The position numbers were made by a program, and so were the translations under genes. From NCBI GenBank assembly GCA_024679065.1, contig JAGIQG010000005.1:107198001-107262000 (forward strand): 64,000 nucleotides of DNA, written 5' to 3'. This stretch comes from Sphyrna mokarran (lineage: Eukaryota). The notes beneath the pieces are model-generated. The model did no database searches and was not told the DNA's origin. It saw nothing but the letters and a program-made list of their open reading frames with translations. Of the stretch, positions 13,027 to 64,000 are shown in pieces (within the stretch, counting starts at the first letter, position 1; each line of letters starts with the position of its first letter).

Positions 13027-13267
13027 AAACAGTTCAGACCTGTTTTCTTACTTCCCCATTTTATTATTGTTCCATTTTAATGTACTCAAGACAATTTCAG
13101 ACCAGATTTTTATTTCCCTGTTTTATTGTTTTTTCCAGTTGGGTAAAGGTGACACCCTCTCTTCCTTTCCACCTTTATACATTTGTGCAAAGATCTATCT
13201 GCCCTACAGCAAACATTTTTTTGCATGGGCAACATATTATCGGGGTCAATTTGCTTAACAACAGCCT

Positions 13268-19473: not shown

Positions 19474-19566
19474 TATGGAGGGGCATTGCTTTTTATATTG
19501 GTCGGCGCAATATCGAAGGCCGAAGGGCCTGTTCTGTGCTGTAATGCTCTATGTTCTATGTTCTAT
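18233..19566 (+). mobile_element. Young CR1, 5'-truncated within RT (variant B), 8-bp TSD ATACCTGG
   Basis: Intact ORF to stop at 19473, tail, ATACCTGG at 18228-18235 and 19565-19572. Confidence 0.97.
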
Positions 19567-19998
19567 ACCTGGTATATCCTTTCAGCTTGCCAGGCCTACC
19601 AAAATGGTAAAATATATTCTTTTCTACACTCTTTCTCTTCAGTTGTTTGGGTTTGGAGGAAACAGCTATGACTAATTTGGTCAAGAGTTGAACTTTTGGC
19701 AATGGAAATCAAGTGTCATGCATGAGGTCTTCTCAATGATCCTTACAGCTATTGGAGAGAAAAGAGTTTCATTTTATTTACCTGAAGTGAAATCAAGACT
19801 CCAAATCCAGATTAAAATTAAAAGGTTCTGACCGAAATATTGTCCAGTTGGTCTTTCACACCTTCCTTGTTGCTTTTCCTCACTTGATTTGGTTACTACA
19901 TCAAAAAAATTGCTGCCAAAGATCAGAAGAAATAGGAGCAGAATAAGAAGGCTATATTGACTTCATCCATCATTCAATCATGGCTGATTTTAGCTCCA

Positions 19999-20711: not shown

Positions 20712-21603
20712 ATCCTTAGATTATGACCCCTGGTTCAGGTCACCCTCACCATCAGTAATATCTTTCCTGCATCTACTGTCTCTAGTTCTGTTGGAATTTT
20801 ATAGGTTTCTATACAATCCCCCTCATTGTTTTAAATTCCAGCAAATATAATCCTAACCGACTCAATCTGTTCTCATGTCATTCCTGCCTTCTCAGAAATC
20901 AGTCTAGTAAACCTTCTCTGCATTCCCCCTGTAGAAAGAACCTCCTCTCGAATAAGGAGACTAACACTGCACACAATAGTCCAGGTATAGTCTCACCAAG
21001 GCCCTACATAATTGCAGCAAGTCTTCCCTACTCCTGCCCTCTAATCTTTCCCCAGGAAGGTTACCGTATCATTTGCCTTCTTCATCACTTGCTGCACCTG
21101 CATGCTTGCCTTCAATGACTGATATACAAGGACACCCTCGTCTCTTTGCATATTCACTTATTTTTCATTTTTAGCCGTTCAGATAATAATATCTCCCTGT
21201 TTTTGCTACCAAAGTGGAGAAGCTCATATTTACCACATTATGCTGCATCTGCCATACAAATGCCCACTCATTTAGCCTATCCAAATCACACTGAATCATC
21301 TCTGCATCTTCTTCAATACTTCAGATTGTTTAACAGCACAATGTGGAATTATCTGAATTATATACTGCTGTACCAGAGACAACTACTTGCTCATTAAGCT
21401 ATAGATGACTCTTTCTTGCTGAGGTTTTTTTTTGAATGAAATGTATTTTTGTTGAATATTTCAAATTGTTTTTTTTTAAATGCTTACTGATTGTCATACC
21501 TTAACTTTATTTGCTCAATGAACTCTATCCAGTTTTTCCCTCATGAACCACTGTAATTTGCTTTGGTTAAATTTAATATTCTTGTTTGGGAGTGAAGTAT
21601 GAA

Positions 21604-30862: not shown

Positions 30863-31490
30863 CTCATTACAGGATGTGGAAGTTATTGAAAGGGTGCAGA
30901 AGAGATTTACAAGGATGTTGCCTGGATTAGATGGAATGTCTTATGAGGATAGGTTGAGAGAGCTCAGTCTTTTCTCCTTGGAGAGATGAAAGATGGGAGG
31001 GACCTGATAGGGGTGCATAAGATGCTGAGAGGTATAGATCAGATGGATTCTCAGAGGCTTTTTCCTAGGACTGAAATGGTTGTTACGAAAGGACACAGGT
31101 ATTTATTAAGTATATGGAAGAGAAGGGAATGGTTTAGTTTGGAGGGGCATTGCTTTTTATTTTGGTCGGCACAACATCGAAGGCCGAAGGGCCTGTTCTG
31201 TGCTGTATTGTTCTATGTTCTATGTTCTATGTTCTATGTATCCTGGGGAGTAGGTATAGAGGAGGTGTCAAAGGATAAAATTTTCACTCAGCGGGTGGTG
31301 GGTGAGTGGAATCAGCTGCCATCGGTAGTGGTAGAGGCAAATTCAATAGGGTCTTTTAAGAGACTTCTGGATGAGTAAATGGGACTTAATAGGATTGAGG
31401 GTTAAAGGTAAGCCTAGGGAGGGATATGATTGGCACAACTTGTGGGTGAAGGGCCTATTTGTGCTGTAGTTTTCATATGTTCCATGTTAT
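30863..31490 (+). mobile_element. Older CR1 3' fragment hosting a young CR1 tail
   Basis: DVEVIERVQKRFTRMLPGLDGMSYEDRL; own UTR ending ~31490. Confidence 0.85.
31107..31239 (+). mobile_element. Young CR1 extreme 3' end inserted in an older CR1
   Basis: TAAGTATATGGAAGAGAAGGGAATGGTTTAG plus UTR and tail, matching the other young copies. Confidence 0.93.
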
Positions 31491-32092: not shown

Positions 32093-33225
32093 CATGCTGG
32101 CAATCAAAACCTGCCCCACCAGCAGCTTAGTTTTTCTAAGATTGGGCCACCATTTTTAAAGACTGCCCCTAGTTCGTACAGAAACTTCCATGAGGCAAAC
32201 CCCAACATCGTCCTGGCACTGTCCCATGGCACTGTCCTAGGGCCGGGGAAATATCCGGTTAGTGCCTGGGCAATGATTAGTGTAGGCATAGAGACCTGGC
32301 AATTATATGCTAATGTGTGAAAATGATGTTCCTAGATGTAACATAACATCACTGGCTGTAAAGGGGATACACTTTTGTTCACTTGAAATGCAATTTGGAT
32401 TTTTTATGAGATTTTCCGCTCCTGTCACCGATCCCACTTGGGAAAACGTGAGCAAAAGTTGGCTTTAACAACAAACTTAATTCCTTAGTTCTAATTCAAT
32501 CCCTCACCCTGTCCACTGTCTCAAGCTATATTGGAACGTTACCATGCGATCCTGAGCTCAAGTCCCAGTGCCTCCTTAGCCTCAGGCTTCCCTATTCTTC
32601 CCCAGTCTATCAGTTGCTGAAACCCTCATTCAGCTTTTGTAATTTCAAACTTGATTATTCCAAGGCTTTATATGGCTGATCACGCATTTTCCACCAACCC
32701 CCTCCTCATTAGCTTGAGCTAATGTAAAGTGCTGATGCTCATTCATCTATCAGACCAGTGCTTGCTGAAATACTTCAACTCCTTTTACAGAACTACCTAA
32801 ATTTAAAATTTCCATTCTTGTGTTACAAACCCTCCATCATTTCCCACACCCCACCCATAAACTCATTTACCAACTATTAATATACATCCAAGCTCAAGCC
32901 TCTCATAAAACCCCACTGCATTCATCCCATTGAGTGGCAGTGCCGTAAGTTGTCCAGGAGTTAAGCTCTTCAATGTTGACATGGTAGCACAGTGGTTCAC
33001 ATACTGCCTCACAACTCCAAGACCCAGGTTCAATTTCAGCTTTGGGTGACTATCCATGTGGAGTTTTCACATTCTCCCTGTATCATTCTCCCTTCAGATG
33101 CTCTGTTTTTCTCACACAGTTCAAAGGTGTGCAGGTTAGGTTGATTGGCCACGCTAAATTGACTCTTGTGTCAGAGAGATTAGCAGGGTAAATATGTGGG
33201 GTAACAGGAATAGGGCCTGGATGGA

Positions 33226-35629
33226 ATTGATTTTTGATTTAGTATTGTCACATGTATTAACATACAGTGAGAAGTATTGTCTCTTTAGTGCTATACAGAC
33301 AAAGCATACCATTCATAGAGAAGGAACAAGAGAGTACAGAATGTAGTGTTAAAGTCATTGCTAGGGTGTAGAGAAAGATCAGCTTAATGCAAGGTAAGTC
33401 CATTCAAAAGTCTGACAGCAGCAGAGAAGAAGCAGTTCTTGAGTCAGTTGGTGTATGACCTCAGACTTTTGCATCTTTTTCCCAAAGGAAGAAGGTGGAA
33501 GACAGAATGTCCAGGGTGCGTGGGGCCCTTAATTATACTGTCTGCTTTGCCGAGGCAGTGGGAAGTGGAGATAGAGTCAAAGGATTTGAGGCTGGTTTGT
33601 GTGATGAATTGGGCTACATTCACAACCTTTTGTAATTCCTTGCAATCTTGGGCAGAGCAGAAATTGGTGATCTGTACACTTGAAAATGTGAAGCTCTCGA
33701 CACTTTCTACTTTATCCCTATTGATGTAGACAGGGGCATGTTCTCCTTTATGCTTCCTGAGATCAATGACAATCTCCTTTGTTTTGTTGACATTGAGGGA
33801 GAGGTTATTGTTGCCAAACCAGTTCACCAGATTGTCTCTCTCATTCCTGTACTCTGTCTCAACATTGTTTGAGATCCCACCCACTACGGTGGTGCCATCG
33901 GCAAGCTTGAAAAGTGAATTTGAGGAGAATTTGGTCACACAGTCATAGGGGTACAAGAAGAATAGTAAGGGGCTGTGTGACACCGGTATTGACAATTAAT
34001 ATAGAAGTGGTGATATTGTCTATCCTTACTGATTGTGGTCTGTGAGTTAGAAATTTCAAGATCCAGTTGCATAGAGGGGTGCTGAGGCCCAGGCCTCGGA
34101 GTTTGGAGATGAGTTTCATGGGAATAATAGTGTTGAAGACTGAGCTATGATCAGTAAACAGGAGTCTGACATAGGTGTTCTTGTTATCTAGGTGTTCCAG
34201 GGTTGAGTGCAGGGTGTCTGCTGTCGACCTGTTGCAGCAGTAGGTAAACTGTAATGATCCAGGTAGTCTGGTAGGTTGGAATTGATCGGTACCATGACTA
34301 ACCTTTCGAAACCCTTCATAATGATGGTTGTCAAAGCCACCAGCTAGTAGTTATTAGGCACGTTGCTTGGTTTTCCTTAGGTACTGGGATGATGGTCGTC
34401 TTCTTGGAATCATAGAGTCGTAGAGGTAACAGCATGAAAACAGGCCCAACTTGTCCATGCTGCCCTTTTGTTTAAACCCCTAAGCTAGTCCCACTTGCCC
34501 ATATCCAATGCCTATATTGCATTTGGCCCATATTCTTCTATACCTATCTTACACAGGTAACTGTCTAAATGCTTTTTAAAAGACAAAACTGTACCCGCCT
34601 CTACTGTACTACCTCTAGCAACTTGTTCCAGACACTCACCACCCTGTGTGTGAAAAAATTGCCCTTCTGGATACTTTTGAATTTCTCCCCTCTCATCTTA
34701 AACCTATGTCCTCTTGACTTGGACTCCCCTATCTTTGGGAAAAGATTTTAACTTTCTCACTTATTTATGCCCCTCATTATTGGATAGATCTCTATAAGAT
34801 CACCCCTAAGTCTTCTTCTGCAGTCCAGAGAAAAAAGTCCCAATCTACTCAACCTCTCCTTAAAGTTGAAACCATCAAGTCCTAGTAGCATCTGAGTAAA
34901 TGTCTTCTGCACTCTTTCTAGCTTGATAATATCCTTTCTATAATAGGCTGACCAGAACTGTACACAGTACTCCAAGTGTGGCCTGATCAATGTCTTGTTG
35001 AACTTCAACAAGACATCCCAACTCCTGTATTCAATGTTCAATTTAGTCATAGTCATAGAGATTTATAGCATGGAAACAGGCCTTTTGGCCCAACTTGCTC
35101 ATGTTGTCCCTTTTTTAATTGCTAGGCTAATTCCAATTGCTCATGTTTGGCTGATACCCCTCTGTATCTATCTTATCCATGTAACTGCCCAAACTTTTTT
35201 AAAAGACAGAATTGTACCCACCTCTACTACTACCACTGGCAGCTTGTTCCAGAAACTCACCACCCTCTGTGTGAAAAAAAATGCCTTCTGGACACTTCTG
35301 TATCTGCTCCCTCTCACTTCAAATTTATGTCCTCTATAGGGACCTCAGATTGTTGTAACGAGAGATTGATGACATCTGTGAATAGCTCCGCTAGCTGATC
35401 TGTGCAGGACTTGAGTGCATGTCTGGGTACTCCATCTGGGCCAGTTGCTTTCTGTGGGTTGACCTTCAAGAAAGCTGCTGTGACACCTGCAATGGTGAGC
35501 AGAGATATAGGTTCATCCAGAGCTTGCAGGGTAGAGGGCATGATCTCGGTGACCTCGGGCGTAGAATGCATTGAGTGCATTGGGGAGAGGTGCATTGGAC
35601 CCGGCGATTTTACATATCCTCAGCTTGTA
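33226..35629 (-). mobile_element. Rex1/Babar-type LINE interrupted by two CR1 fragments
   Basis: ORFs 33444-33995 and 35314-35595 (KATGPDGVP..ALKSC.DQLA..FTD..NLSLQQSEVP); colinear with the 21855 copy. Confidence 0.88.
34408..35336 (-). mobile_element. Two head-to-tail 3' fragments of one older CR1 subfamily (about 34408-35040 and 35045-35336) nested in Rex1
   Basis: ORF 34757-35056 (RPHLEYCVQFW); same 3' UTR repeated twice; Rex1 resumes at TAGGGACCTCAG. Confidence 0.85.
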
Positions 35630-35707
35630 ATTGTGGTTGGTGCAGACTCTGTGGGTCAAATGGCCTCCTTCTGCACTGTATGGATTCAATGAATCAGTTC
35701 TATAAAT

Positions 35708-36297: not shown

Positions 36298-37818
36298 TAT
36301 TTCAGCAAGGCGATCGATAAGGTCCCCATGCAAAGCTTATTGAGAAAGTGAGGGGGCATGGGATCCAATGGGATGTTGTTTTGTGAATCCAGAGCTGGCT
36401 TGCCAGCAGAAGGCAAAAAGTGGTTGTAGATGAGTCTTTTCCTGCGTGGAGGTCGGTCATCAGTGGAATACCCCAGAGATCTGTTCTGGGACCCTTGTTG
36501 TTTGTGATTTTTATAAATGATCTGGATGAGGAATTGGAGGGATGGGTTGGTAAATTTGCCGATGACATGAAAGTTGGAGGATTTGAGGTTGTTTTCATTA
36601 GAAAGGAGGCGGCTAAGAGGGGATCTTATTGAAGCATATAAGATGATTAGAGGTTTAGATAGGGTGGACAGTGATAGCCTTTTTCCTAGGATGGAGAAAG
36701 CTAGCACGAGGGGACACAGCTTTAAATTAAGGGGTATGAGTTATAGGACGGATATCAGAGGTAGGTTCTTTACTCAAAGAGTGATTAGGGAGTGGAATGC
36801 CCTGCCTGCAGCTGTTGTAGATGCGCCAAGTTTGGTGGCGTTTAAGAGGTTAATTGATAAGTATATGGAAGAGAAGGGAATGGTTTAGTTTGGAGGGGCA
36901 TTGCTTTTTATTTTGGTCGGCACAACATCGAAGGCCGAAGGGCCTGTTCTGTGCTGTAATGTTCTATGTTCTATGTTCTATGTATTGTGGATAGTTTAGA
37001 GGGATGTCAGAAGTTGCAGTGCGACCTAGATAGGATGCAAGACTGGACAGAGAAGTGGCAGATGGACTTCAACCCAAATAAATGTGTAGTGGTACATTTT
37101 GGCAGGTCCAATGGGATGAAGGAATATAATATTAAGGGTAAGACTCTTCGCAGTGTAGAGGATCAGAAGAATCTTGGGGTCAGGGTTCATAGGAACCTCA
37201 AATCAATTTCACATGTACAGGATGTGGTTAAGAAGATGTATATTGTACTGGCCTTCATCAATCAAGGAATTGAGTTTAGGAGTCAGGAGATAATGCTGCA
37301 GCTGTATAAGATCCTGGTCAGACCCCACTTGGAGTATTGTGCTCAGTTCTGGTTGCCTCACTACAGGAAGGATGTGGAAGCCATTTACAAGGATGTTGCC
37401 TGGATTGATTGGCATGCCTTATGAGGATAGGTTGGTCTTTTCTCCCTGGAGAGATGAAGGATGAGAGGGGACTTGATGCCATGTATAAAATGATGAGAGG
37501 TATTGATCAGGTGGATTCTCAGACACTTTTTCCAAGGGCTGAAATGGCTGCCACAAGAGAATACAGGTTTAAAATGCTGAGGAGTAAGTACACAGGAGAC
37601 GTCAAAGGTAAGTTTTTCACTGAGAGGGTGGTGGTTAAGTGAAATCGGCTGCTGTCGGTGGTGATGCAGGTAAATTCGATAGGGTCTTTTAAAAGATTTC
37701 TGGGTGAGTACATGGGACTTAATAGGATTGTGGGTTATAGGTAAGCCTAGTAGGTAGATATCGGCACAACTTGTGGGCCGAAGGGTCTGTTTGTGCTGTA
37801 GTTTTTCTGTGATTCTAT
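36298..37818 (+). mobile_element. Older CR1 fragment (same subfamily as 30863) hosting a young CR1
   Basis: FSKA.DKVP, SGIPQRSVLGPLLF, FADD, RPHLEYCAQFW; UTR ends GATTCTATG. Confidence 0.88.
36578..36983 (+). mobile_element. Young CR1 3' fragment (variant A) inserted just after the FADD motif of an older CR1
   Basis: Host reads FADDMKVGG|IVDSLEGCQ across the insertion; insert near-identical to the 12600 copy. Confidence 0.95.
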
Positions 37819-40960: not shown

Positions 40961-41267
40961 GAGGTTATTCTAAAGTACCCAGACAAGGGTCAAACAGAGG
41001 TTGATTTATACTGAAATTTTATTATGGTTTTATAAAACCAAAATGAGGCTAGTTACTTGGGATATTGAAGAGAAACTGGGTGATACAATGTTGGAATGGG
41101 CTGTATGACAGCTGGAAGGGTAATATTTAAAATCATTTTAGATTTTTTGCCACTTACTCATGGGAAGATGGATCCATCAATATAAGGGCCAGCATTCTCC
41201 CAAACAAAAGCGCTCAACAGGTGGGAGAACAAGAGATTTTCCTGCCTGTTTTCTGGGCATGTTTATG

Positions 41268-42220
41268 CTTCTGAAGAGAAAGTTTGGCCAATTTCTAAAA
41301 ATTGTCCATTATAAAAAGCCCTTTTCATTACCTTCTTTGGGCTTTTAAATGGTGCCTGCTTCAGTTAAATGCGTTCTTTCTGAATGAATCTCTGACACAT
41401 CCAATTGCTGGCCTCATGACGAATGCAAACCCCCCCCCCTGAGTGGAGGCCTAACAGGTTACACTCTCAAACCCTGTCTACCTCTCCAACTACCTCAAAT
41501 CTCCTGCTATCTCCCCAATTTCCTAAATACTTTCCCCATGCCCAGAGTATCTCACCATTAATTATTCTTTCACCTCTTCTAATGCCCTCCACACTCCAAC
41601 TACCCCTCATATCAACCCAAATACCCAACCCCCACTTTGCCCGACTTCCATCTTAAATACCGAACTAATCCCATGATTACATCCCACCACCATCCTCCCA
41701 AATTTCTCTGAAAACCCAAACTACCCTCACCCACTATACTTGACTAGCCCCCAACTATTAGTGCTTCCCCAAGCATCATCCTGGACCCGACTACCCAAAT
41801 CTCCTGATGTCCTATCCTCTGACTAACTCCTAATCCTCAAACTATTCCTACATATCCACAACTCCCCTGACTCCCCCAACAACATTCCTAACCCCCATTA
41901 CCCTCTGCAGCCTGTTTGTCCCATTACTACCATCCCACACCCCAACTCTTGACTCCCAACCATCCTGATATCCCCAAATCCAAGTATACCCCAAGCTCCA
42001 ACCTCAACTAGACCCGAGAGCCAAAATGTCTGAACTACATCCCCACTCTCAGTTACTTTCCCAACACATCTAACTACACCCTATTACCATCAGCCATCCC
42101 ATACTTCTGAAGAGAAAGTTTGGCCAATTTCTGAAAATTGCCGATTACAAAAAGCCCTTTTCATTACCTTCTTTGGGCTTTTAAATGGTGGCTGCTTAAG
42201 TTAAATGCATTCTTTCTGAA
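41268..42220. repeat. 117-bp direct repeats (41268-41384, 42104-42220) flanking a C-rich low-complexity tract
   Basis: 7 mismatches counted by eye in 117 bp; partial third copy at ~42332-42388. Confidence 0.92.
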
Positions 42221-44286
42221 GGACTGGCTATAGGATCTGACCCCAGTAACTGGTATTTTGACTCCTGGAGCATCAGTCATTTTTAAGCCAAGTTCTCCTG
42301 TTCTTGCTGAGCCAAGACCCTTTTGCTCTCAGCTTTTAAATATTGACTTCTTTTAAGTTGAATGTATTCTTGCTGAAGGACTGGCTTTCTCATTGAAAAA
42401 AGCTATTCAATTAGTTCTACTCCCCTGCCCTTTTCACATAGCCTGTGATTTCTTTTCCCCTTAATTCAATATCGAATTCCCTCCTTGAGTTGGACTGTCA
42501 TTTTTGTGTCAGCAGGAATTGGAAACTGTTCTGCACTGGCAACATAGCATCCGCTTAACAACATAGTTATATAGTAGATAAAAGCAGATATTATCTCTAA
42601 AATCACTGAGAGACCCTACAATTAAAGAAAGAAAATAATCATACAAAGAATGCTTATTCAGTGAGAACAGAATGGCATGCTGATGAACGAACATAAATTT
42701 CTATGTGCAACTAAATTGCTCCTGTTAAGCTTGCTCTGAATAAGGCTCACTCCATAACACAGTGAATGAGTTTGATAGATTTTATAGCAAATGTTGTTGC
42801 ACTGATTGAAGTCTAATCTTGAACTTGATTTCTTAAAGCAGGTATACAGCAGTACATCTTTGGCCACTTTTGGTTGGAACTTGAGAGGGCTGATGCCTGT
42901 AACAAGGCCATTAGTCAACTTTACTGCTAGATAAATCATGCAGCTGTTAGCTGACTTTAACCCTCTGATACTAAAATGTTGCCTCAATCTTCAGGATCAA
43001 ATATTTGCACAAAATAACTGACATTTTGAAACTAAAATGCAGTTTTCAGTATGTGTGAATGAGCAAATGCATTCATTAGCAAAATTTTCCATGGCATTGC
43101 TCACTGTATTGGCTTCCCCATGAACTGAGTGCAATGCTTGTTCAGATCATTGAGGGTGAATTCAAATTGCCTGTGGGAACAGTGGGTCTGTTCACCATGT
43201 AACTGTGAGTTGAAGCTGGCAGACCATGTTCTGACATTAGATCCACTGTGTAGTAAGGTGCAAGGTACCAGGCACCATTTCTGGCAACATTATGATCAAA
43301 AATTGATTATATGTTGATCTTGCCATCCTAATCAACTGGTTTTTATTGGAATCTGCAGCTCTTAGTCTATGCTGCACTCAATTAGACCAGAGATTTAGAC
43401 CAGAGTTTATAAGGATTCCATGAAGTACTTCAGAATCAATTAAATATTTTTAAATTGCTATTGTAATCTGGGCCAATGTGGTTACTGAGACAGGGGTTGA
43501 GAAAGGGGCTCATAAAGCATATAGGATGCTGGATTTTATAAATATGGGATCTTGCTATGCACAAAATGGCTACTACATTGACCAAGATTATAATAGCAAT
43601 TACATTTTAAAAATATTTAATTGATTATAAAGTACTTTATGAAATCCTAAGGAGCTGAACACACAATATAAAGCAAGTTCTTCCTGAATAATCATTGGCT
43701 TGGATATTCCAAATAGAAACTGAAAGTTAATATTACTCATGTCAAATGTATGAATACATAAACAGTATACATTGTAAAGCTACCAATATAATCAGTGTGA
43801 CTCTTGCAGGACCATTATTCATGTCTCTCTCTCTATGGTTTACAAACATTTTCCAGGCTGCAAACAAAAGCAAACTACTGAAGTCAGGAAGGTTCAGTTA
43901 CCCTATGTTAGAGTGAGCAGGGAAACATTAAGGTCAGATCCAATTCTGAACTTATCTTGAGCCACAGATGGCATTCTTTAGCTGTGGTTCATCATGCAGG
44001 TACAATGTACACTCTAATCTCTCTTCTCCCTCCACTGCTTCTCCTGCCCCAAATGCATTATTTTATTACACTTTAGTGTCACGTAAATGCAGCTTTCATA
44101 CTCAGGTCTGAGGCAGACCTTTCCCCCCTCTGCAGTCATTCATGTAGTGGTCTGATTTATTTCTCTTCCTCGGCATTTCCTCCTTCAGTTAACTAGTCTA
44201 TTTGCCTCCAGATTATTGCATGGGGCAGTTTGGAAAGTTGACTGTTGGTGTACGAGCTATAAGAATGCCATATAAGATGTAGACAT

Positions 44287-47017: not shown

Positions 47018-47332
47018 TAGCCTTTTTCCTAGGATGGAGAAAGCTAGCACGAGGGGACACAACTTTAAATTAAGGGGTATGAGTTATAGGACGGATATCA
47101 GAGGTAGGTTCTTTACTCAAAGAGTGATTAGGGAGTGGAATGCCCTGCCTGCAGCTGTTGTAGATGCGCCAAGTTTGGTGGCGTTTAAGAGGTTAGTTGA
47201 TAAGTATATGGATGAGAAGGGAATGGTTTAGTTAGGAGGGGCATTGCTTTTTATTTTGGTCGGCACAACATCGAAGGCCGAAGGGCCTGTTCTGTGCTGT
47301 ATTGTTCTATGTTCTATTGTTCTATGTTCTAT
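47018..47332 (+). mobile_element. Young CR1 3' fragment
   Basis: ORF 47001-47231 matches the ORF2 C-terminus; UTR and tail present. Confidence 0.95.
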
Positions 47333-52100: not shown

Positions 52101-52680
52101 ATTTACTAATTATGTTTTTCACAGTATTCGGGCTGATCTCTTCATGAACAGATAATTTTTAGTAATGTATTGAACAATAGCAAAACTAAGGGTAACCATG
52201 GCTGAACTGAAATGAGAAAGGTCAGTGCTTAATTTTCTGGTGCATGCTGTGATCAGGGAGTTTCACCCATTGGCCATATACACTGGGAAATGATCGAAAT
52301 TCTGTCTGCAATCTTTCACTGATTGAACTAAAGCAAAAGGCACAGTTACGTTTATTCATGATTATGTTACAAGTAGGCTTACATTAACACTGCAATGTAG
52401 TTAACTGTGAAAAGAGTTGGAGATGAGAATGTCCACTGCAAATACTGGAAAAAACTGATCCTATTATCTTGACTTAATTCCATTAATATTTTGATTTATT
52501 TCTGAAGTAATGCTCTACTTCAGGTGAAATACATCAAGGCTGGAGAATTGAATCCTTTCCATTCTTGCGTACAATTAGAACAGTTGGAATAATTGCAGGT
52601 TTTAGTCTGTTTCAGCAATCCATCTTAATTCTTACCTCAGAAGAATCATTTCTGTTGCATTGTATATCATTTTAATTTCC

Positions 52681-53284
52681 CATAGAACATAGAACATTAC
52701 AGTGCAGAACAGGCCCTTCAGCCCTCGATGTCGCGCCAACCAATTAAGAAAAAGCAATGACCCTCTAACCTAAACCATTCCCTTTTCATCCATAAACTTA
52801 TCCACGGACTTCTTAAACGCCCCCAAACTTGGCACATCTACAACTGCAGCAGGCAGGGCATTCCATACCCTTACTACCCTCTGGGTAAAGAACCTACCTC
52901 TGACATCCGTCCTATAACTACCACCCCTTAATTTAAAGCTATGTCCCCTCGTGCTAGCTTTCTCCATCCAAGGAAAAAGGCTATCACTGTCCACCTTTAA
53001 TCATCTTGTATGTTTCAATAAGGTCTCCTCTTAGCTGCCTTCTTTCTAACAACCTCAAATCCCTCAGCCTCTCCTCATAAGACCTTCCCTCCATACCAGG
53101 CAACATCCTGGTAAACGTCCTCTGCACCCTCTCCAATGCCTCCACATCTTTTTTATAATGTGGGGACCAGAACTGCACACAATACTCCAAGTGCGGCCGC
53201 ACCAGAGTTTTGTACAGTTGCAACATGACATTGCAGCTCTGAAATTCAATCCCCCTACCAATAAAAGCCAAGACTGCGTATGCC
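52681..53284 (-). mobile_element. CR1 3' fragment, slightly older sister variant of the young family
   Basis: ORFs 52984-53286 and 52770-52994 (RGGSY, VVRVWN) with small deletions; CATAGAA tail. Confidence 0.93.
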
Positions 53285-54578: not shown

Positions 54579-54790
54579 TAAATGCGCCAATCTGAACAGT
54601 GGTGGAGTGTGGCGACTAGGGGAATTTCACAGTAACTTCATTGTAGTGTTAATGTAAGCCTTGGTCTCTATATGTCATTAAGACGTTAGGATGGCGGCGT
54701 GAGCTCATTGGGCCGAAGGGCCTGTTTCCCGTGCTGTGTTGTTCTTTTTTCTTTGTTCTTTGTTCTTTATGTGTGACTAATAAATAAGCT
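54579..54790 (+). mobile_element. 3' part of a Rex1-tail SINE, interrupted by a CR1 tail
   Basis: GGAGTGTGGCGACTAGGGGAATTTCACAGTAACTTCATTGTAGTGTTAATGTAAGCC...TGTGACTAATAAATAA; an isolated minus-strand tail lies at ~52355-52413. Confidence 0.75.
54661..54768 (+). mobile_element. 3'-terminal fragment of the (TGTTCTT)n-tailed CR1 family inserted in a SINE tail
   Basis: From ~54682 matches the last ~85 nt of the 63774 and 57295 copies; host SINE tail split as AATGTAAGCC|ATGTGTGACTAATAAA. Confidence 0.8.
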
Positions 54791-55039
54791 TTAACTTTTA
54801 TCATGCCTCTTGCAACCTTTTCTGTTCCAAGAACTTGACAGTGGTACAACAGCACTTATAATGTTTCTGACCTGAAAACAGGCCTGGCTTCTGTTTCTCA
54901 CCAACCTGGTGAGAAAATTCAGGCCTCAATCTTCAGCCTCGTGCCTTTTCTTTCGGGACTTAGCAACAACAGGACATATTCTGCATTTATATACCCTGTC
55001 TTAGCCATTTATAAGGTTAATCGCTTCTATTAATGTGTC

Positions 55040-55640
55040 TTCATAATATGTGTTGTAGAAAGAAAATTGGTTTCTTTGTCTATTCTTGTATTGGGCAGTG
55101 AGCATATTGTACTCTTCCTAAAGATTTAAGATCCTTCTTGTAATGTGAAGCCAAATACTTCACACAGTACTCGAACTGAGATCTTTTTAAAGTTTAATAT
55201 TGGCTCATCATTACCTCTTGGCTTTTACATGCTGTACTTCCTGTGTTAAAACCTGAAATTCCATTAACTCTTTTTACAGCTTTGTCAATCTGAGATGCTA
55301 TTTTTAATGCTCTGTGAACTTGTGCTCCAAATATCTCTCCTTTTTCCACAGCAGAAAGCCTGGACTGAGTATAATTGCTATCTTTATTCCTCAAAATATA
55401 TCATCTCTCATTTTCAGACACTGTCATCTTTTTGCCCATTTCCCCATTTTTCCATCATACCCCCTTACAGACTCCAGTAGTTTCCCAAAGCATTAGCTAG
55501 CTATAACTGTGATTTTGGTATCATTTATGATTTTTTCCCATTGTTCCCTCCAGGACTATAACAAAATCATTGATAACTATAGTGAACGTAAAAGACTCAG
55601 AACTGGAGGAATCTACAGGAAATTATAACCATGTCCAACA
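55040..55640 (-). mobile_element. Old CR1 fragment
   Basis: ORF 55194-55394 QVHRALKIASQIDKAVKRVNG; CACAGTACTCGAACTG (antisense LEYCV). Confidence 0.6.
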
Positions 55641-56091
55641 GCATTGAGAACAAAAACCTTTAACACCAAAGAATTTTGCAGTCCTGAAGTGAGTTCTAGA
55701 AGAAAATGGTTGCTGGTGATGAAATTGGAAACACTGCCTCTGTCTCTGGTGCACTCATTTTCACTGGTGGAGGGAAGGGAGTAGTCTGAGAACCCAATAA
55801 ACTCTATTCAAACAGTGCCATGTTTAAAGTGCACATTTAAGAATTTCTGGAATCTTCACAGAAGTCGTCCTAATACATTTCTGTAAGAGTTGAAACATGA
55901 AGCATGATTTAGAGGTGAGAAAAGCGTCAAAATCACGTTGCTTCCTTTGCAATTAATCATGAAATATTACAGCCTGAATTGTAAATGTTATAATCGGGTG
56001 AGAACAGTTGTAAGGATAGCCCCTTTTTATCCCACTCCTTAGTTGATCATAACAAGGATTTTTGAAATTTATAAGGAACAGCACTGTATTT

Positions 56092-56417
56092 TGGGGTGAC
56101 ATGGTAGCATAGTGGTTAGTACTGCTACTTCATAGCTCCAGGGACCTGGGTTCAATTCCCAGTTTGAGTCACTGACTGTGTGAAGTTTGCACATTCTCCC
56201 CGTGTCTGCATGGGCTTCCTCCGGGTGCTCCGGTTTCCTCCCACAGTCCAAAGATGTGCTGGTTAGATTGGTTGGTCATGCTAAAAAAATTGCCCCTTAG
56301 TGTCCTGAGATGCATAGGTTAGAGGGATTAGTGGGTGGATATAGGTCTGGGGTGGGATTGTGATTGGTGCAGACTGGATGGGCCAAATGGCCTCTCTCTG
56401 CACTGTAAGATTCTATG
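56092..56417 (+). mobile_element. HE1-type V-SINE, full length
   Basis: Head with GGGTTCAATTCCC B box, V-domain, GATTCTATG tail. Confidence 0.9.
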
Positions 56418-56753
56418 AACAATCTGCTAACTGCTAATTTATTGCATCTATTTAACTGTTTGCACACTAATTGTTTCCATGCATTTAAACAAGAGAGGGG
56501 TTAGTTTCATGTTGCTAAAAATCCACCCAGGTAAAATTATTAATAAGGTCAAAATGCACACACGTGACCAGCAATGCACAGAAAAAATTGCAGAGGTTAT
56601 CTTTTGGCTGAATTTAGATTCAACCATAAAAGGTAAAGTTATATGAGCCCTTCACTGTTGTTCATGACTGCGTCAATTCTTAAAACTGTAGTCTTTGTTT
56701 TTTTTAATCTCCTGAAAATGCTGTTTTGGAATTTAAAATCTTCTTTTGAATAT

Positions 56754-57295
56754 AAAATAGGGATCATGAGCCTTGGGAGTTCCCTGGGAATTGTGTAAAT
56801 TGTGAATGATATTGATGTATTTCTGTTTTATCCGACAGCTGTTTTGGCCTACCATGTTGTCTAATAAGGGGCATACACGCGATGGGTTGTGAGAGGGCTG
56901 CTCTTGGATTTTTCGAGAGTATCCTAGTGCTTCACATCGTTAGTGTATGCTTGACCTGGACCAGTTGATGGGCAACACAACAGCTCAGTGACTATCACTG
57001 TGTTGTGCAGATACATGCATTTGGGCTTGTGTCTGTGGGAGTTTGCGCATTCTCCCTGTGCTTGCGTGGGTTTTCTCCAGGTGCTCCGGTTTCCTCCCAC
57101 ACCCCAAAGATGTGGTCTTAGGCTAATTGGCAAAACGAATTCTCCCTAAATTGTCTCAAATTTGGTTCCAATGCATACATGTATAAACATAGACAGGGAT
57201 CATAGGTAGAAGTGGGAACATCGAGGTGACGACGCAGGCTCGTTGGGCCAAAGGGCCTGTTTCCTGTGCTGTTTTGTTCTTTGTTCTTTGTTCTT
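56754..57295 (+). mobile_element. Second copy of the long SINE-containing CR1 3' UTR; TSD AATAT
   Basis: Colinear with 63228-63774 along its whole length; AATAT at 56749-56753 and 57296-57300. Confidence 0.92.
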
Positions 57296-58494
57296 AATAT
57301 CTCTGGCTGCTGTCCACAGTACAATATAAACAGGCAGAGTCCAGCTTAGTTGAAAGAGATAGATAAGGGAACAGGCTTTGGACTGCCTTTAGATGTTCCA
57401 TTTCCACAAAACCACCAGGATTTTATGATTAAACAATTTCAGAAATCATAGTTTCAGTTACGTGATGACTGGCATTGATATGTGAAGGAAAACAATCAAT
57501 AGTCTATTCATTCCAGTGAGTAAGATTCCATTTTCTATAGTCAAAACCATTGACATACAATAGAGGACAATAGCTGAACTTCATACTTTCCTTGTGTATA
57601 ATCAGTTTTATTAGTACTTCTTTATTATGTGGTATTCTAGGACCTCATTGTCCTTGATGTTTTGAATTAAGTCCTGACAAATGCACATTGGACATTCCAG
57701 AATGATATGATCTACACATGTTCATTATAACCCACATTTTAAAGCTTTAAGAAGCTTGGCCGACTTGCAGTGCCAAATGTTAACCAGTTGCATCCTGTTC
57801 TTAACAGCTGAAACTGACATTTTAAAAATATGTGAGTTCATGTTTGACATCAATACACCTACGTAATGCTCTGTTCATGAAGGTAAGTGATGAGAGTGCT
57901 ATGGTTGGAAAATCTAACTGCCCATTAAATAACATCATTGCCAGGTGGTTACTTTTGACAACAGGCATTTTTCAGATGCATTAGGATAAATATTGCACTG
58001 GATAAGGTGTGATAATGAATACTATAGTATTGAAAGCATAATCCAGTGCAAACTTAATAATTAATTGTTTAAACTTTTCCAATTTCTTTCATTTATTCAG
58101 CGCAGTTTAACTGAGCCATCTGCCAGGCTCTTTTTAAACTTTGACAGATATATGAGTTTTAGGCTACTTCCAAAGTGCTAATGGATTCTGAAATATTGAG
58201 TTTATTTATTCAGTTGCTTGGGGAATATAAGGTTGATGGCTTTGGCAGATTTATGAAATTCTCAAGAGGCTAACTGTTTTTGAAGTGCCTTTTCAACTGA
58301 TGGTTACTTATTTGGACAGCTTTGTGAGCTTTTCAAGGCATTACAAATGTTAATGATGAGGATAAAGGAGGATGGAAGTAAGGGGGGAAGTGTTGTGGGG
58401 GATGAGATAGCAAAAGGGGTTGGGGTGACAAACATAAAGCAGATGGGAGTTGGGGGTGAGGTGTTGATAGTGAAGGGGCTTTATATCAATCTGT

Positions 58495-59060
58495 AGGTTT
58501 AAATTAATATGGATGAGCTATCAATGCCAGAATACCAGAGTATGGCTTTGGAGTCAATAACAGATAGGAAGGGTAATGAAATGGAGGCATTTGAAAGAAG
58601 AACAGAAAATGTTAAAATGAAGGTACTGTTTAGCCAGGAGCCAGTATAAATCAGCAAACATAAGTAGACAGGTAATGGGGGTGACACAGTGTGAGTTAGT
58701 AAGTGGGCAGCAGAGTCTGGAACAATTTCAAGGTAGACTGTGGGAATCCAACCAAGAGTACTTAGAAATAATCAATTCTAGAAGTAATAAAGGCATGAAT
58801 GAGAGTTTCAGGAACAAATGAGTTGTGGTGGGGCAAAGTTGCACAATGTTTGTGGAGTAAAAATATGGGGCTTTAATGATAGTGAGGAAATGTGGTTGGA
58901 AATTCATCTCGGATCATATATGAAACCAAGGTTGCAAACAGTTTTGTTCACCGTCAGGCAGTTGCCAGGAAAAGGGATAGAATTGATGGCTCGGGTTGGC
59001 ACCAGGGTTGAAGACACTTCCCAAAATATTGTTGATTTGAAGAGGAGAAAGGTGCAGGAT
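58495..59060 (-). mobile_element. Old L2-type LINE fragment
   Basis: Minus strand PETLIHAFITSRIDY at ~58770-58812. Confidence 0.65.
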
Positions 59061-61184
59061 TCATGGGGAGGACAGAAGAGCAGAATATTGAGATTTGTTT
59101 TGGATTAATTAAAAAAGGGATGGCACAAACAAAATGGGCTTTTTTTTGGTTCCATTGCATTAATATCTTTTCCATTCACGTGTATAAAATTAGTACCAAA
59201 ACAGCCTTCTATTTGAGAGAGAAGTCATGGGAAATCTCAGAATTGAAGAGTTCAAAATGACAATGAATGATGGGAAAAGAATCACAGAATTGGGTGCCTA
59301 AGTACATTATAAATGCTTGGTCTGCCAAAGATATTCCACAAGAAATATTTTTCAAAGTGTAGTCAGTTTTATCAACTCTCTGAGTAACTTATATTTATAT
59401 TGTGCCGATGCTGCCCAATAACAACAGAGATCGATTTGCCTTTCTCTTGTGCCTGACACAGTCTGGGAGATGCTTAGTTCCCAGACACAGCAATAGTGAT
59501 AAGGTTGAAACCTCTTGTATCAGGAGAGTGTGCACACATGTAACAATAAATAACATAAACCAAGGATGTAATGAGCGGGTTACCTTAATATTTGAACCCA
59601 ATAATAGGGGAAAAACTCAATAAGGTCTTATGTCATTGCATCAGGTCCAGCCCCATTGAGGGAGGCAACATACAATCTTTTTGCTGCCTGTTCACTTAAT
59701 TGATTAGAACCTGCAACCTCACTGCATTCATGTAACGGGAGCTATTACATCAATTCTGGGTGGCTTGTGTAGAAGATATTGGACATCAAATGGAGTACAG
59801 GCCAGAGACAGAGACTCCCATTTTTTTCTGGCGAGCATGCATCTACTGCCCTTGTCCTAAGGTTGAAGATGGAAGATGCTGTTGAAGGAATTATGGTGAG
59901 TTGCTGATGTTCTTTTGTGATATTCAAACTTCTTTTGAGGGCTCATCTATTTGAAACGTTCGTGCAAGGGAGAACAAATGGTTGTATTATATTGGGACAA
60001 GTTACGTAGATGCAAGGTGAAATATTTAAGGTATAGCATCTGGAAAAGTGTCTCCTCAAATAACCTAAGCTTAAAGAAGACAAATGACTGCGGTGAAGTC
60101 CATGATTCTTTTAAATTTGAAATTGCCCTGAGGAGTTGAACTTGGCTTTGGAAGAAATAGCTGACCTATAACAATGATGGCTTTCTGAACTCTCCAGAGG
60201 GTAATTCTTTAATTTTGATGCTGAACGTACACTGCAAATCAGGTAGTATATGGTCTTTGTATCTGTAAATTGAAGAATAGACAGTAACATAGGGCAGACT
60301 GCAAATGGCTTGATCTGGCTTTGCTGAGAAATATTATCCATTGAAGTCATATTGAATAGATGAGATTCAGTTGTTCTGACTGCTGCAATTCCATAAATAA
60401 TATTGCAGTTTTTCCCCCACCTTACACACACACATGCACAAATAATTCTTTTCTTTGCCCTTCTACATTACGGCTGCTGCAAATCACATTCCATTCTTAC
60501 CTTCAGCTGTGATTGCAGATGAATTAGTATTGGACTTGTACGGTACTCCAGATTCACTTCCTGTGCAGTATTTATTATACATGTGACCATTAAAGCATAA
60601 AATCCTATCACTTTGATTTAAGTGGTAGCTAATAACCTCCCTCGATTTATTCCTAGACTCGAGTGCAGGAAATGTTTATAGTGAATTAGTTTAAGTTAAA
60701 ATTTAACTGAAGTATTTCACACAAGAAATAAATTAGATACCCTATTTTGTTTGTGTAGCAAGGACGTGTGAAATAATTCAGATAGATTTATGATTTGCAA
60801 TTATATTTGCCATTATATTTAAAATTTTACACAATTCATTCAGTAAGAACCTTATTTCAAAAGTTCATTTCCAGGTATAAATTTAATCAATGGGACTCTT
60901 TGTTATTTTTAAAACTGCTTGGAGAGACAAAGCAGATTTTCCAGGAAGGAGATTGAGACAGATGTCATATCCCTCTCAGCTAATAAGAATATGCGCATTG
61001 GTTTCTTTGTTATTCTGCATTAATTAGAGTGGAACACTACGCTTCAGTAACCTGTCTTCTTTACAAAGAAGAATATAAATCACTTTTTAAATGTTGTTTT
61101 GCTTCAGCATTCATTCTGCAGCACCATGAATTTCATTATTGGTAGATTTGTATAAAAATTCAGCACCAAACATAACTTTTGTCT

Positions 61185-61610
61185 CTAGGTTACAAGGTTC
61201 TGGCTTAAAGTCCCGCTTTAAGACTCATGTACACAAAGCTGATCATTCAGTGTCTGACTAAGTGAGGATGGCACTGTCCAAGGTGCTGCTTTTGAATTTG
61301 ATATTAAACCAATCTGCTTGCTGGGCTGGATGTGTCAAAAAAAAACACTCCTTGGCACTATTTTGAAGAAGAGAAAGGAATTAGCTGTGGTGTCCTGGAT
61401 AATATCTCAATCCATTTCACATACAAAAAGAAATGAGATAATCTGGTCTTTATCACAATGTTATTTGGGTGAATTTGTCTATGTGCATATTGGCTGCAGC
61501 ATTTCCTACTTTACAACAACTTCAAAAAAGCACTTCATTGGCTTTAAAGCACTCTGAAACATATTGGGATCATGAAAAGTGCTATAAAAATAAAAGTCTT
61601 TGTTTCTTTG
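61185..61610 (+). mobile_element. Deu-domain SINE (SacSINE1/AmnSINE1-related), old
   Basis: GGCACTATTTTGAAGAAGAG...GGTGTCCTGG...ATCTGGTC.TTATCACA...TTGGCTGC.GCATTTCCTAC..TACAACA...CTTCATTGGCT.TAAAGC; a 3' fragment also lies at ~43545-43685. Confidence 0.75.
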
Positions 61611-61804
61611 CCAAGTTCCACTCTTAAATATGGCAAGGTATACTTTTTTGAAGAAAATTGTTTTCTTTTTAAAAGAAAACCTTAAAATGTTGCCCAATTG
61701 TATTGTTCATTTCAGATTTGGTGTTCAGCAACAAGAAAAAGAGTGGAAACTCATACTGCTCGAAATGATCAAACTCAAAGACGACATTTGAAGCAAACTA
61801 CCTT

Positions 61805-63229
61805 TTATCCCAGGCTGCTTAGGGAGTTGCAAGGTGAAATTGCTGGGCTTCTGACGCAAATCTTTGTCTCTTCCTTGGACACAGGTGAGGTTCCAGAGGA
61901 CTGGAGAATAGCTAACGTTGTACCGTTGTTTAAAAAGGGTAGTAGGGATAATCCTGGAAATTATAGGTCGGTGAGTTTGACGTCAGTGGTAGGGAAGCTG
62001 TTGGAGGGGATTCTTAGAGATAGGATGTATAGGCACTTGGAGCGTTACGGGATACACAGCATGGATTTGTTAAGGGGAGGTCATGCCTTACAAATCTGGT
62101 AGAATTTTTTGAGGAGGTGACGAAAAAGGTGGATGAAGAGCGATTGATGTCGTCTATATGGATTTTAGTAAGGCATTTGACAAAGTCCCTCATGGGAGGT
62201 TATTTGAGAAGGTCAAGGCTAATGGGATACAAGGACAGGTAGCTGGATGGATAAGTAGCTGGTTTGGTAATAGGAGACAGAGAGTAATAGTGGAAGGGTG
62301 TTTTTCTAGCTGGAGGTCGGTCACTAGTGGTGTGCCACAGGGCTCGGTACTGGGACTCTTCTATTTGTAATATATATAAATGATTTGGAAGAGGGAGTAA
62401 GCAGAGTGATCAGCAAGTTTGCAGACGATACAAAGATGGCTGGACTTGCAGATAGTGAGGACCATTGTCAGGTGATGCAGCAGGACATGGATAGGCTGGT
62501 AGCTTGGGCAGACAGATGGCAGATGGAATTCAATCCTGATAAATGTGAGGTGATGCATTTCGGGAGAAAGAATGTAGTGGGGAGGTATATGATAAAGGGT
62601 AGACCTATTAAGAGTATAGAAATGCAGAGGGACCTGGGGGTGCAGGTGAACAAGTCTCTGAAGGTGGCAGAGCAAGTGGAGAAGGTTGTGAAGAAAGCAT
62701 ATAGTATGTTACCTTTATAGGAAGGGGTATAGAGTACAAGAGCTGACCTTTAATGTTGCAGTTGTATAAAACGATGGTTAGACCTCATTTGGAATACTGC
62801 GTCCAGTTCTGGTCGCCCTACTACCGGAAGGACGTGGAGACTCTGGAGAGAGTGCAGAGGAGGTTTACCAGGATGCTGCCTGGTATGGAAGGTCTGAGTT
62901 ACGAGGAGAGATTAGGCAAATTGGGACTGTTTTCCTTAGAAAGACGTAGACTTAGAGGAGATCTAATAGAGGTGTACAAGATTATGAGGGGTATAGATAG
63001 AGTAAACAGGGTGAAGCTCTTTCCTAGGATGGACTTGAATGGCATGAGGGGTCACGGGCTTAAGGTGAGGGGGGGTAAGGTATAATTTGGATGCTAGAGG
63101 GTGGGGGGGGTGGTATGGAATGCGCTGCCAAGTAAAGTGGTGGAGGCAGGTTCTCTGGAGTTATTTAAGAAATACTTAGATGGGCACATGAACAGAATGG
63201 GTATGGAGGGGTATAGAAAACTGATTTAA
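61805..63229 (+). pseudogene. Frameshifted CR1 ORF2 (RT domain)
   Basis: YPRLLRE, NYRSVSLTSVVGK, MDFSKAFD, GVPQGSVLG, FADD, RPHLEYCVQFW spread over several frames. Confidence 0.9.
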
Positions 63230-63774
63230 GATAGGGATCATGAACCTTGGGAGTCCCTGGGAAGCGTGTAAATAGATGATGATATTGATGTACTTGTTTT
63301 TATCCTACAGGTGCTTTGGACCACCTTGTTGTCTAATGAGGGGCATACATGCGATGGGTCGTGAGAGGGCTGCTCTTGGATTTTTTTTTTTGAAAATATC
63401 TTAGTGCTTCACGTCGTTAGTGTACGCTTGACCTGGACCATTTGATGGGCAACACGAGAGCTCAGTGACTATCGCTGTGCTGTGCAGATACATGGATTTG
63501 GGCCTGTGTCTGTGGGAGTTTGCGCATTCTCCCCGTGCTTGCGTGGGTTTTCTCCGGGTGCTCCGGTTTCCTCCACATCCCAAAGATGTGCTCTTAGGCT
63601 AATTGGCAAAACAAATTCTCCCTAAATTGTCTCAAATTTGGTTTTTAATCCATAGATCTATAAACATAGACAGGGATTGCGGGTAGAGGTGGGAACATCG
63701 GGGTGGCAGCGCGGGCTCGTTGGGCTGAAGGGCCTGTTTCCCGTGCTGTTTTGTTCTTTGTTCTTTGTTCTTTG
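61805..63774 (+). mobile_element. CR1 LINE with frameshifted ORF2 and an unusually long 3' UTR containing a V-SINE; (TGTTCTT)n tail; TSD TACCTT
   Basis: RT pieces in ORFs 61698-62102, 62158-62370, 62385-62720, 62753-63085; stop TAA 63227-63229; UTR 63230-63774; TACCTT at 61799-61804 and 63775-63780. Confidence 0.92.
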
Positions 63775-64000
63775 TACCTTGATGACCACCAGACATAACA
63801 TAATAAAATCCCTTGATTCCCAATATAGAAACAGCCACAAGTACAGAATGATCCATGGAAAAGTTTGAATGCAAATATTCGGTGGTGTTATACAGAAGTT
63901 CAACCCTTAGCATCTGAGATCCTGGTTTTGTGATATAAAAGTTCTCTGTTATACAGCACAGAGTACTTTTTTCTGAATAAAACTTAGTTTATAATTAAAC

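What the first reader, a model, noticed from the sequence alone, without database searches (positions are those of the whole stretch)
61805..63780. A CR1 LINE carrying a whole decayed V-SINE inside its 3' UTR and mobilising it as one unit
Seen: after the ORF2 stop (TAA 63227-63229) the UTR is ~545 bp, versus ~90 bp in the young CR1 family here. It comprises ~215 bp of unique spacer, then GGGCAACACGAGAGCTCAGTGACTATCGCTG (from 63447), which aligns with the SINE head GGGCGGCACGGTAGCACAGTGGTTAGCACTG but lacks the B box, then a well preserved V-domain (63507-63630), then a CR1 recognition end with (TGTTCTT)n. One TSD (TACCTT) brackets ORF2 and UTR together, and an independent copy with its own TSD lies at 56754-57295, so this is a propagated chimeric family rather than a one-off nesting. 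The V-domain is visibly better conserved than the Pol III head. Established: SINEs normally borrow LINE tails, and the function of the V-domain is unknown. Inference: here the host LINE captured its parasite, lost the Pol III promoter and kept the V-domain, which suggests the domain has a cis role in retrotransposition.
Basis: partly seen in the sequence, partly recalled or inferred. Interest (0 to 1): 0.82.

Follow-up and report, generated by a model that had tools for sequence, protein, structure and literature searches.

The report
Jumping gene carrying its parasite's core
A self-copying DNA element, probably from a shark or ray, appears to have absorbed one of the short parasitic elements that normally hitch-hike on it. 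The parasite's promoter has decayed while its ancient conserved core has hardly changed, which could give a way to test what that core does.

Summary
The anatomy is real. A 5'-truncated, frameshifted CR1-type ORF2 (61805-63229) runs into a 545-nt 3' region: a 217-nt spacer, a decayed V-SINE head without its B box, a V-domain (63507-63607, not to 63630), and a CR1-type stem-loop with (TGTTCTT)n. One TSD brackets it all. A second insertion (56754-57295, 88% identical) and a tail-only third (54676-54767) show the 3' region was retrotransposed repeatedly.

Neither carries ORF2, and copy 2 starts at the stop codon. LINE linkage therefore rests on 1 of 3 copies, and no outside copy could be found. 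A LINE family is still the likeliest reading (~0.8).

The V-domain is well kept: 12/96 differences from the local SINE consensus against 17/50 in the head, and about 8/101 from human MER6 by eye. Between the two copies it differs at 4/99 sites against 48/413 elsewhere (p=0.025), but this is not significant after scan correction. A cis role is suggestive, not shown. Whether the tail is the SINE's own is unresolved.

The closest precedent is MER6, a DNA transposon with a headless V-SINE. A 2016 paper states that such domains were not found in LINEs.

The parts
61799..61804 (+). 5' target-site duplication TACCTT of copy 1
   Evidence: ORF2 homology starts at 61805/61806 (tblastn)
61805..63229 (+). 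5'-truncated, inactivated CR1-type ORF2 (RT domain to C-terminus), stop TAA 63227-63229; deletions near 62049, 62135, 62360, 62716, ~63090 and an in-frame stop at 62744-62746
   Evidence: Pfam RVT_1 on 2 of 5 pieces; 66% nt to the young CR1 family over its 3' 500 nt; clade with P0007 (94% aa) and P0001 (81% aa), FastTree support 0.95; lesions
63230..63446 (+). 217-nt spacer of unknown origin, shared only with copy 2
   Evidence: nhmmer of a two-copy profile hits only the two copies at E<5; no Rfam match at E<=10
63338..63432 (+). ~92-nt imperfect hairpin in the spacer; strong in copy 2 (56864-56955), damaged in copy 1
   Evidence: copy 2: -39.3 kcal/mol for the hairpin; z -3.4 (117 nt) and -5.3 (100 nt); copy 1: z -0.45 and -1.1; background 6 of 160 windows reach z<=-3
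63447..63506 (+). decayed tRNA-derived V-SINE head; A-box-like motif 63458-63468, B box removed by an 18-nt deletion
63507..63607 (+). V highly conserved domain
   Evidence: 84/96 identical to the consensus of 11 free SINE copies; about 93/101 to MER6 V by eye
63608..63704 (+). post-V segment; only marginally alignable to the local SINE, origin (SINE or LINE) unresolved
   Evidence: shuffle p 0.02-0.03; the nhmmer alignment to the free-SINE profile runs through it
63705..63774 (+). CR1-type 3' stem-loop (63705-63750) and (TGTTCTT)n tail
   Evidence: z -2.24; same fold as the young CR1 end; 81-85% to CR1 ends over ~50 nt
63775..63780 (+). 3' target-site duplication TACCTT
56754..57295 (+). copy 2: the entire 3' unit without ORF2; TSD AATAT; 5' end at the ORF2 stop codon
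54676..54767 (+). copy 3: last ~80 nt of the same tail family; TSD TATGT; inserted in another repeat's tail
   Evidence: 89% over 75 nt

Best explanation
A distinct CR1 lineage acquired a V-SINE (head, V-domain, perhaps tail) in its 3' UTR and has since been copied as one Pol II RNA.

Shown: one insertion spans ORF2 and the unit; the unit recurs in independent insertions; the B box is gone.

Inferred: ORF2 protein binds the terminal stem-loop and primes reverse transcription at (TGTTCTT)n. Ordinary 5' truncation then gives long (copy 1), medium (copy 2) and short (copy 3) insertions.

Inferred origin: RT primed on the downstream recognition end of a transcript joining LINE, spacer and SINE. 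This could arise by read-through into a same-strand SINE, by SINE insertion into the UTR, or by a template switch; these cannot be separated here. The Pol III head then became useless and decayed.

The V-domain more likely than not (~0.5-0.55, conditional on the family being real) stayed under selection in the source elements, most plausibly as an RNA-level cis element that helps the transcript survive or be used as template. That last step is untested.
For: - A single 6-nt TSD brackets ORF2 and the unit.
- The ORF2 is its own lineage, with no other copy in the window (tblastn), and the (TGTTCTT)n tail has no other ORF2 partner.
- The sister protein P0001 ends at the same codon, four residues after the EGY motif. 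The stop is therefore at the lineage's natural position, not at a random fusion point.
- The unit has no promoter of its own: no B box in the head, and T-runs of 4 or more in the spacer of both copies.
- 543 nt is a typical truncation length here: 5 of 8 other CR1 copies are 313-607 nt.
- V conservation: 12/96 vs head 17/50, p=0.004. Differences shared by both copies: head 20/61, V 11/96. Free copies decay evenly across segments, 16-19%, so V is not simply slow-mutating. Copy vs copy: 4/99 vs 48/413, p=0.025; non-CpG 2/89 vs 32/375, p=0.04.
Against: - Only 1 of 3 copies is ORF2-linked, and copy 2 begins within ~5 nt of the stop, a roughly 2% coincidence by my estimate from 8 truncation lengths.
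- No outside copy was found. 0 of the 24 listed relatives that reach the C-terminus (of 120 listed, 3291 found) end like this ORF2; the closest, P0007, stops short. Searches gave no family member with the unit.
- The V signal weakens with the canonical 80-nt window (4/80 vs 48/432, p=0.11) and is not significant in a scan-corrected permutation (p 0.12-0.53).
- V shows no unusual folding (z -0.26 and +0.36).
- The donor differs from the local SINE family, which inflates the head contrast.
Confidence: 0.72

Rival explanations
1. The LINE family with the cassette is real, but V is a passenger. It looks conserved because V is conserved between all V-SINE families and the donor had a divergent head. 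Alternatively, an old decayed head and a younger V were joined, or V was refreshed by template switching with active SINE RNA. This overlaps with the best explanation on anatomy and differs on function.
For: V variants are shared with MER6/Ac1 rather than the local family (vs 66). The copy-vs-copy signal is not significant after scan correction. MER6 carries V in a DNA transposon, where an RNA role is not needed (PMC6887750). HCDs are proposed recombination hotspots (PMC5804259).
Against: The head is collinear with the usual V-SINE head, yet about one third diverged from both the local head and a frog head, while a teleost head differs from the local head at only ~14/59 (by eye). Both copies keep 11 shared V differences from the local family, so there was no conversion towards it. 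Nominal p is 0.01-0.04 for the 99- and 124-nt windows.
Confidence: 0.38
2. The 545-nt unit is a non-autonomous element with its own fixed 5' end, and copy 1 is a one-off chimera made when RT switched from unit RNA to a CR1 mRNA.
For: Copy 2 starts at the stop codon; only one ORF2-linked copy exists. Template-switch chimeras of retroposons are known (PMC5499810 passages).
Against: There is no promoter for the unit. The switch would have to land on the last codons and put a stop where the sister lineage has it. No copy of this ORF2 with a short UTR occurs in the window.
Confidence: 0.15
3. Both exist: the LINE carries the cassette, and a UTR-only derivative is also made preferentially (RNA processing or an RT stop near the stop codon), acting as a Pol II-dependent SINE.
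For: It would explain the position of copy 2's 5' end without chance.
Against: No stable structure at the junction (z +0.26 and -0.35); n=1.
Confidence: 0.1
4. Later nested insertion beside a dead CR1, or segmental duplication.
For: The window is rich in nested repeats.
Against: One TSD surrounds both parts, there is no CR1 UTR remnant after the tail, and the flanks of the copies are unrelated, with best local matches of 13 and 10 nt.
Confidence: 0.03

Closest known systems
MER6/MER6A (Tc1/Mariner MITE; PMC6887750)
   Same: A V-SINE captured by another transposable element and spread as its cargo without a working head; V-domain about 92% identical by eye.
   Different: MER6 is a non-autonomous DNA transposon with TIRs and a TA duplication, and lacks the head. 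Here the host is a retrotransposon of the clade that mobilises V-SINEs, the cargo passes through RNA each cycle, and a decayed head remains.
HE1 V-SINE / HER1 CR1 LINE pair of sharks and rays (listed in PMC3747384)
   Same: tRNA head, V-domain and CR1-type tail; the 11 free copies in the window look like this kind (the HE1 sequence itself is recalled, not compared by tool).
   Different: There the SINE borrows the LINE's tail and stays a separate Pol III element; here SINE modules sit inside the LINE's 3' UTR.
Coelacanth composite CR1/SINE insertion 26 (PMC4255032)
   Same: CR1 RT fragment followed by SINE sequence in one insertion.
   Different: Single copy, parts with their own TSDs; a nested cluster, not a propagated unit.
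Canonical vertebrate CR1 (young family in this window; PMC13343379 passages)
   Same: ORF2 RT, 5' truncation, short TSD, stem-loop plus microsatellite end.
   Different: 3' UTR of 545 nt vs ~76-95 nt, with SINE-derived modules. The 2026 survey mentions UTRs once and describes no such cassette in the passages seen.
LINE-derived SINE bodies (PMC5786205)
   Same: Module traffic between LINEs and SINEs.
   Different: Opposite direction (RTE/Vingi 5' UTR into SINEs). A few LINEs with Ceph-like sequence in the 5' UTR are noted, one possibly by recombination with a SINE; no V-domain in a LINE in the passages seen.

Membership tests
CR1-clade LINE | ORF2 reverse transcriptase of CR1 type | tested here: met
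   RVT_1; 50-64% aa to bird RT gene models; 66% nt to the window's young family. The label 'CR1' for these relatives is from established knowledge; no call names the clade.
CR1-clade LINE | 5' truncation, short TSD, 3' stem-loop plus microsatellite | tested here: met
CR1-clade LINE | APE endonuclease, ORF1 and 5' promoter; an intact source copy | not testable with these tools
   The copy is truncated at 61805 and no source genome is available.
V-SINE superfamily | V central domain | tested here: met
   by-eye match to published MER6, Ac1, Pyad and Racla sequences
V-SINE superfamily | tRNA head with both A and B boxes | tested here: not met
   Head homologous but B box deleted; box patterns recalled.
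V-SINE superfamily | Stand-alone unit starting at the head, with its own TSD | tested here: not met
   Both V-bearing copies extend ~217 nt 5' of the head and the TSDs lie outside. It is V-SINE-derived, not a V-SINE.
V-SINE superfamily | Tail inherited with the SINE ('whole SINE') | tested here: inconclusive
   post-V p 0.02-0.03; terminus 0.64-0.65 to young CR1 ends vs 0.57 to the SINE consensus
Propagated LINE-SINE chimeric family | Independent insertions sharing the cassette | tested here: met
   2 of 3 copies carry it, with different TSDs and flanks
Propagated LINE-SINE chimeric family | Two or more ORF2-linked copies with the same junction | tested here: inconclusive
   1 of 3 in the window; outside searches found none but hold almost no such DNA
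MER6-type MITE | Terminal inverted repeats and TA duplication | tested here: not met
   No terminal inverted repeats in either 3' unit; TSDs are 5-6 nt

The most novel reading that the evidence does not exclude
An autonomous CR1 family has carried a V-domain in its 3' UTR under purifying selection long after the SINE promoter died. This would be a counter-example to the statement that SINE conserved domains are absent from LINEs. It would show that V works at the RNA or retrotransposition step independently of Pol III, and would offer a shared sequence through which LINE and SINE RNAs can exchange tails.
Probability: 0.4. Interest if true: 0.85.

Novelty: new variant of a known kind. Interest (0 to 1): 0.62.

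Why it matters
Why SINE central domains stay conserved for hundreds of millions of years is an open question with three untested hypotheses. [quoted passage not shown]

A LINE carrying V removes the usual confounders. The domain is separated from Pol III transcription, sits beside internal neutral controls (dead head, spacer), and lies in cis to an ORF2, so both a rate test across subfamilies and a simple deletion assay become possible. It also reverses the usual direction of SINE-LINE module flow.

If V proves to be a passenger, the element is still a neat but modest composite retroposon.

Tried and rejected
Searches for other family members:
- ORF2 C-terminus as protein query: 3 candidates, none significant.
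- 112-aa piece, near lengths: 3291 hits, 120 listed, 24 reach the C-terminus, none ends like this copy.
- Same piece, longer proteins: all 120 listed were bird gene models at 50-64%.
- Minus-strand frame over V, head and spacer against 1.84 billion representatives: 3 hits. The two I read match only the V part; the third is 28% identical and was not read.
- GTDB genomes: 0 matches to a unit-specific 27-mer; 4 short contigs at 55-57% aa, none matching the unit.
- The cluster look-up for P0001/P0007 could not be made, so further members and DNA downstream of P0001 stayed unseen.

RNA families: Rfam gave 0 hits in the window at gathering score, 0 for copy 1 at E<=10, and one chance hit for copy 2 (E 2.7).

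Ideas rejected:
- Spacer as a decayed ORF2 duplicate: one 34-nt match at -1.1 bits in copy 1 only; shuffles reach 0.9.
- The 10-nt direct repeat at the UTR start and in the tail as a TSD or old UTR remnant: about one such match is expected by chance (my estimate).
- Selective retention of the head hairpin: 10-32% of neutral simulations fold as well.
- A T4 run in V as a sign of Pol III release: the same run is in MER6 and one free copy.
- A hairpin at the stop as cause of copy 2's truncation: not more stable than shuffles.
- A conserved V structure: weak consensus fold with an unfavourable covariation term.
- Host gene: none found; 2 of 115 non-repeat frames hit Pfam, both retroelement-type.

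Literature: ten searches found no report of a V-domain in a LINE 3' UTR. Repbase, Dfam, the Ogiwara 1999/2002 papers and subscription journals were not searchable, so prior description is not excluded.

Full report
Setting. The window is repeat-rich vertebrate DNA (40% GC). It holds several CR1-type families and 11 free tRNA-headed SINE copies with a V-domain. That it is a shark or ray is an inference from the resemblance to HE1/HER1, which is recalled; PMC3747384 lists HE1 as the V-SINE and HER1 as its LINE in sharks and rays. No host exon was found: 2 of 115 non-repeat frames hit Pfam, both retroelement-type.

The element. ORF2 homology begins at 61805-61806 and ends at TAA 63227-63229. Two of five pieces hit RVT_1. 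The copy is dead, with about five frame-changing deletions and one stop. TACCTT abuts both ends; 3 of 300 random pairs gave a duplication of 6 nt or more with +/-2 slop. The 3' region is 545 nt, against about 76-95 nt in three other CR1 ends. It ends in a stem-loop that folds like the young family's, followed by (TGTTCTT)n, a repeat found at only three places in the window.

SINE content. Against a consensus of the 11 free copies, 63447-63506 scores above 5000 of 5000 shuffles and above all 16,798 background windows. An 18-nt gap removes the B box wherever the aligner places it. The V-domain spans 63507-63607 and matches published V sequences (supplements of PMC6887750 and PMC5804259). By eye it differs from MER6 at 8 of 101 aligned sites and from the local consensus at 12. 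Several variants are shared with MER6 or Ac1 and not with the local family, so the donor was another V lineage. The segment after V aligns only marginally (60 and 41 of 2000 shuffles), and the terminus is slightly closer to CR1 ends than to the SINE consensus. Head and V are certainly SINE-derived; 'whole SINE' is not established.

Other copies. Copy 2 (56754-57295) is 88% identical, has TSD AATAT and unrelated flanks. It has no ORF2 and starts at the stop codon. Copy 3 (54676-54767) is the last ~80 nt with TSD TATGT. The 3' unit is therefore mobile, but ORF2 linkage rests on 1 of 3 copies.

Family or one-off chimera? For a family: the ORF2 is a separate lineage, with P0007 and P0001 (support 0.95 in a 61-sequence FastTree tree), and no short-UTR copy of it occurs in the window. 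P0001 ends at the same codon. The unit has no promoter. Five of 8 other CR1 copies are truncated at 313-607 nt. Against: copy 2's start at the stop is roughly a 2% coincidence (my estimate), and no outside member with the unit turned up, though these collections hold little such DNA. A one-off template switch needs a rarer event and its own coincidence. I put the LINE family at about 0.8, including the variant in which a UTR-only RNA is also made.

Is V constrained? Unit against local consensus: V 12/96, head 17/50 (p=0.004), post-V plus tail 44/125. Differences shared by both copies: head 20/61, V 11/96. Free copies decay evenly (16, 19, 16, 19, 17% across five segments), although they also built the consensus. 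This comparison is confounded by donor identity. However, by eye a teleost V-SINE head differs from the local head at about 14 of 59 sites, while the unit's head differs by about a third from both the local and a frog head, which suggests real decay. Copy against copy is free of that confound: spacer 23/211, head 6/60, V 4/99, post-V 11/94, tail 8/48. A scan-corrected permutation gives 0.33, 0.12 and 0.53. V has no unusual fold. Constraint is slightly more likely than not; its nature is untested.

Mechanism. Established knowledge: stringent LINEs recognise a 3' stem-loop and prime at terminal repeats, and SINEs share that end (PMC3747384 passages). Inference: a transcript joining ORF2, spacer and SINE was primed at the downstream end and fixed as a new source element. 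Read-through, insertion into the UTR and template switching give the same anatomy. With Pol II driving the LINE, the head decayed. V was either kept as an RNA-level cis element or carried as a passenger, possibly refreshed by recombination.

New detail. The spacer holds a ~92-nt hairpin, strong in copy 2 (z -3.4 to -5.3; 6 of 160 background windows reach -3) and damaged in copy 1. One double-sided change keeps a pair, but both sides are CpG-type changes, so it is weak evidence. Rfam has no match.

Comparison with what is known. MER6 is the precedent for V riding in another element without a working head (PMC6887750; parts 1-3 of 5 read, supplement passages seen). PMC5804259 (passages and supplement passages) states that no such domains were found in LINEs. 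PMC5786205 (passages) covers the LINE-to-SINE direction and notes Ceph-like sequence in some LINE 5' UTRs, so the 2016 statement is already softened for that domain. PMC4255032 (passages) reports a single-copy CR1/SINE composite. PMC4824008 (passages and section 13; one supplement unsearchable) says the domain's function is unknown. PMC13343379, PMC5499810, PMC11481361 and PMC5753468 (passages) showed no such element. Ten searches found none; Repbase and Dfam were not available and may already hold an unannotated consensus.

Verdict. A real composite retroposon, probably a CR1 family with a V-SINE-derived 3' UTR: a new variant of a known kind. It works like a CR1 and is not a V-SINE by membership. 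The functional claim is an attractive, testable hypothesis resting on two copies. Interest 0.62.

Noticed in passing
window 56864-56955 and 63338-63432: Long imperfect hairpin in the spacer, strong in copy 2 and damaged in copy 1; no Rfam match; origin unknown.
   Followed up: partly
window 63290-63311 and 56815-56837: Pyrimidine tract followed by CAG in the spacer of both copies, resembling a 3' splice site; could hint at captured intronic flank or be chance.
   Followed up: no
window 21600-23474 and 32975-35691: Two free V-SINEs each followed by a related (72-75%) minus-strand repeat with a PF09004 hit at 22259-22486, probably a LINE; the second SINE resumes at 35629 after about 2.4 kb.
   Followed up: partly
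window 21600-21860 and 54600-54800: A V-SINE variant with a different tail; the same tail type hosts copy 3. At least two free V-SINE tail types occur in the window.
   Followed up: partly
window 7572-9716, 12600-13028, 15316-15826, 18233-19570, 31107-31232, 36573-36985, 47018-47330: Young CR1 family, copies 94-99.8% identical to each other, (TGTTCTA)n tail; an older relative lies at 52678-53284.
   Followed up: partly
window 54676-63774: All three copies of the (TGTTCTT)n family lie on the + strand within 9 kb of a 64-kb window; chance or local insertion preference.
   Followed up: no
L001-L004: Short contigs (736-1256 nt; three named with coverage below 0.4) in bacterial reference genomes encode CR1-type ORF2 at 55-57%; probably vertebrate contamination.
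   Followed up: no
window 11271-11511 and 41265-42223: Local direct duplications of about 120 nt (91-93% identical).
   Followed up: no
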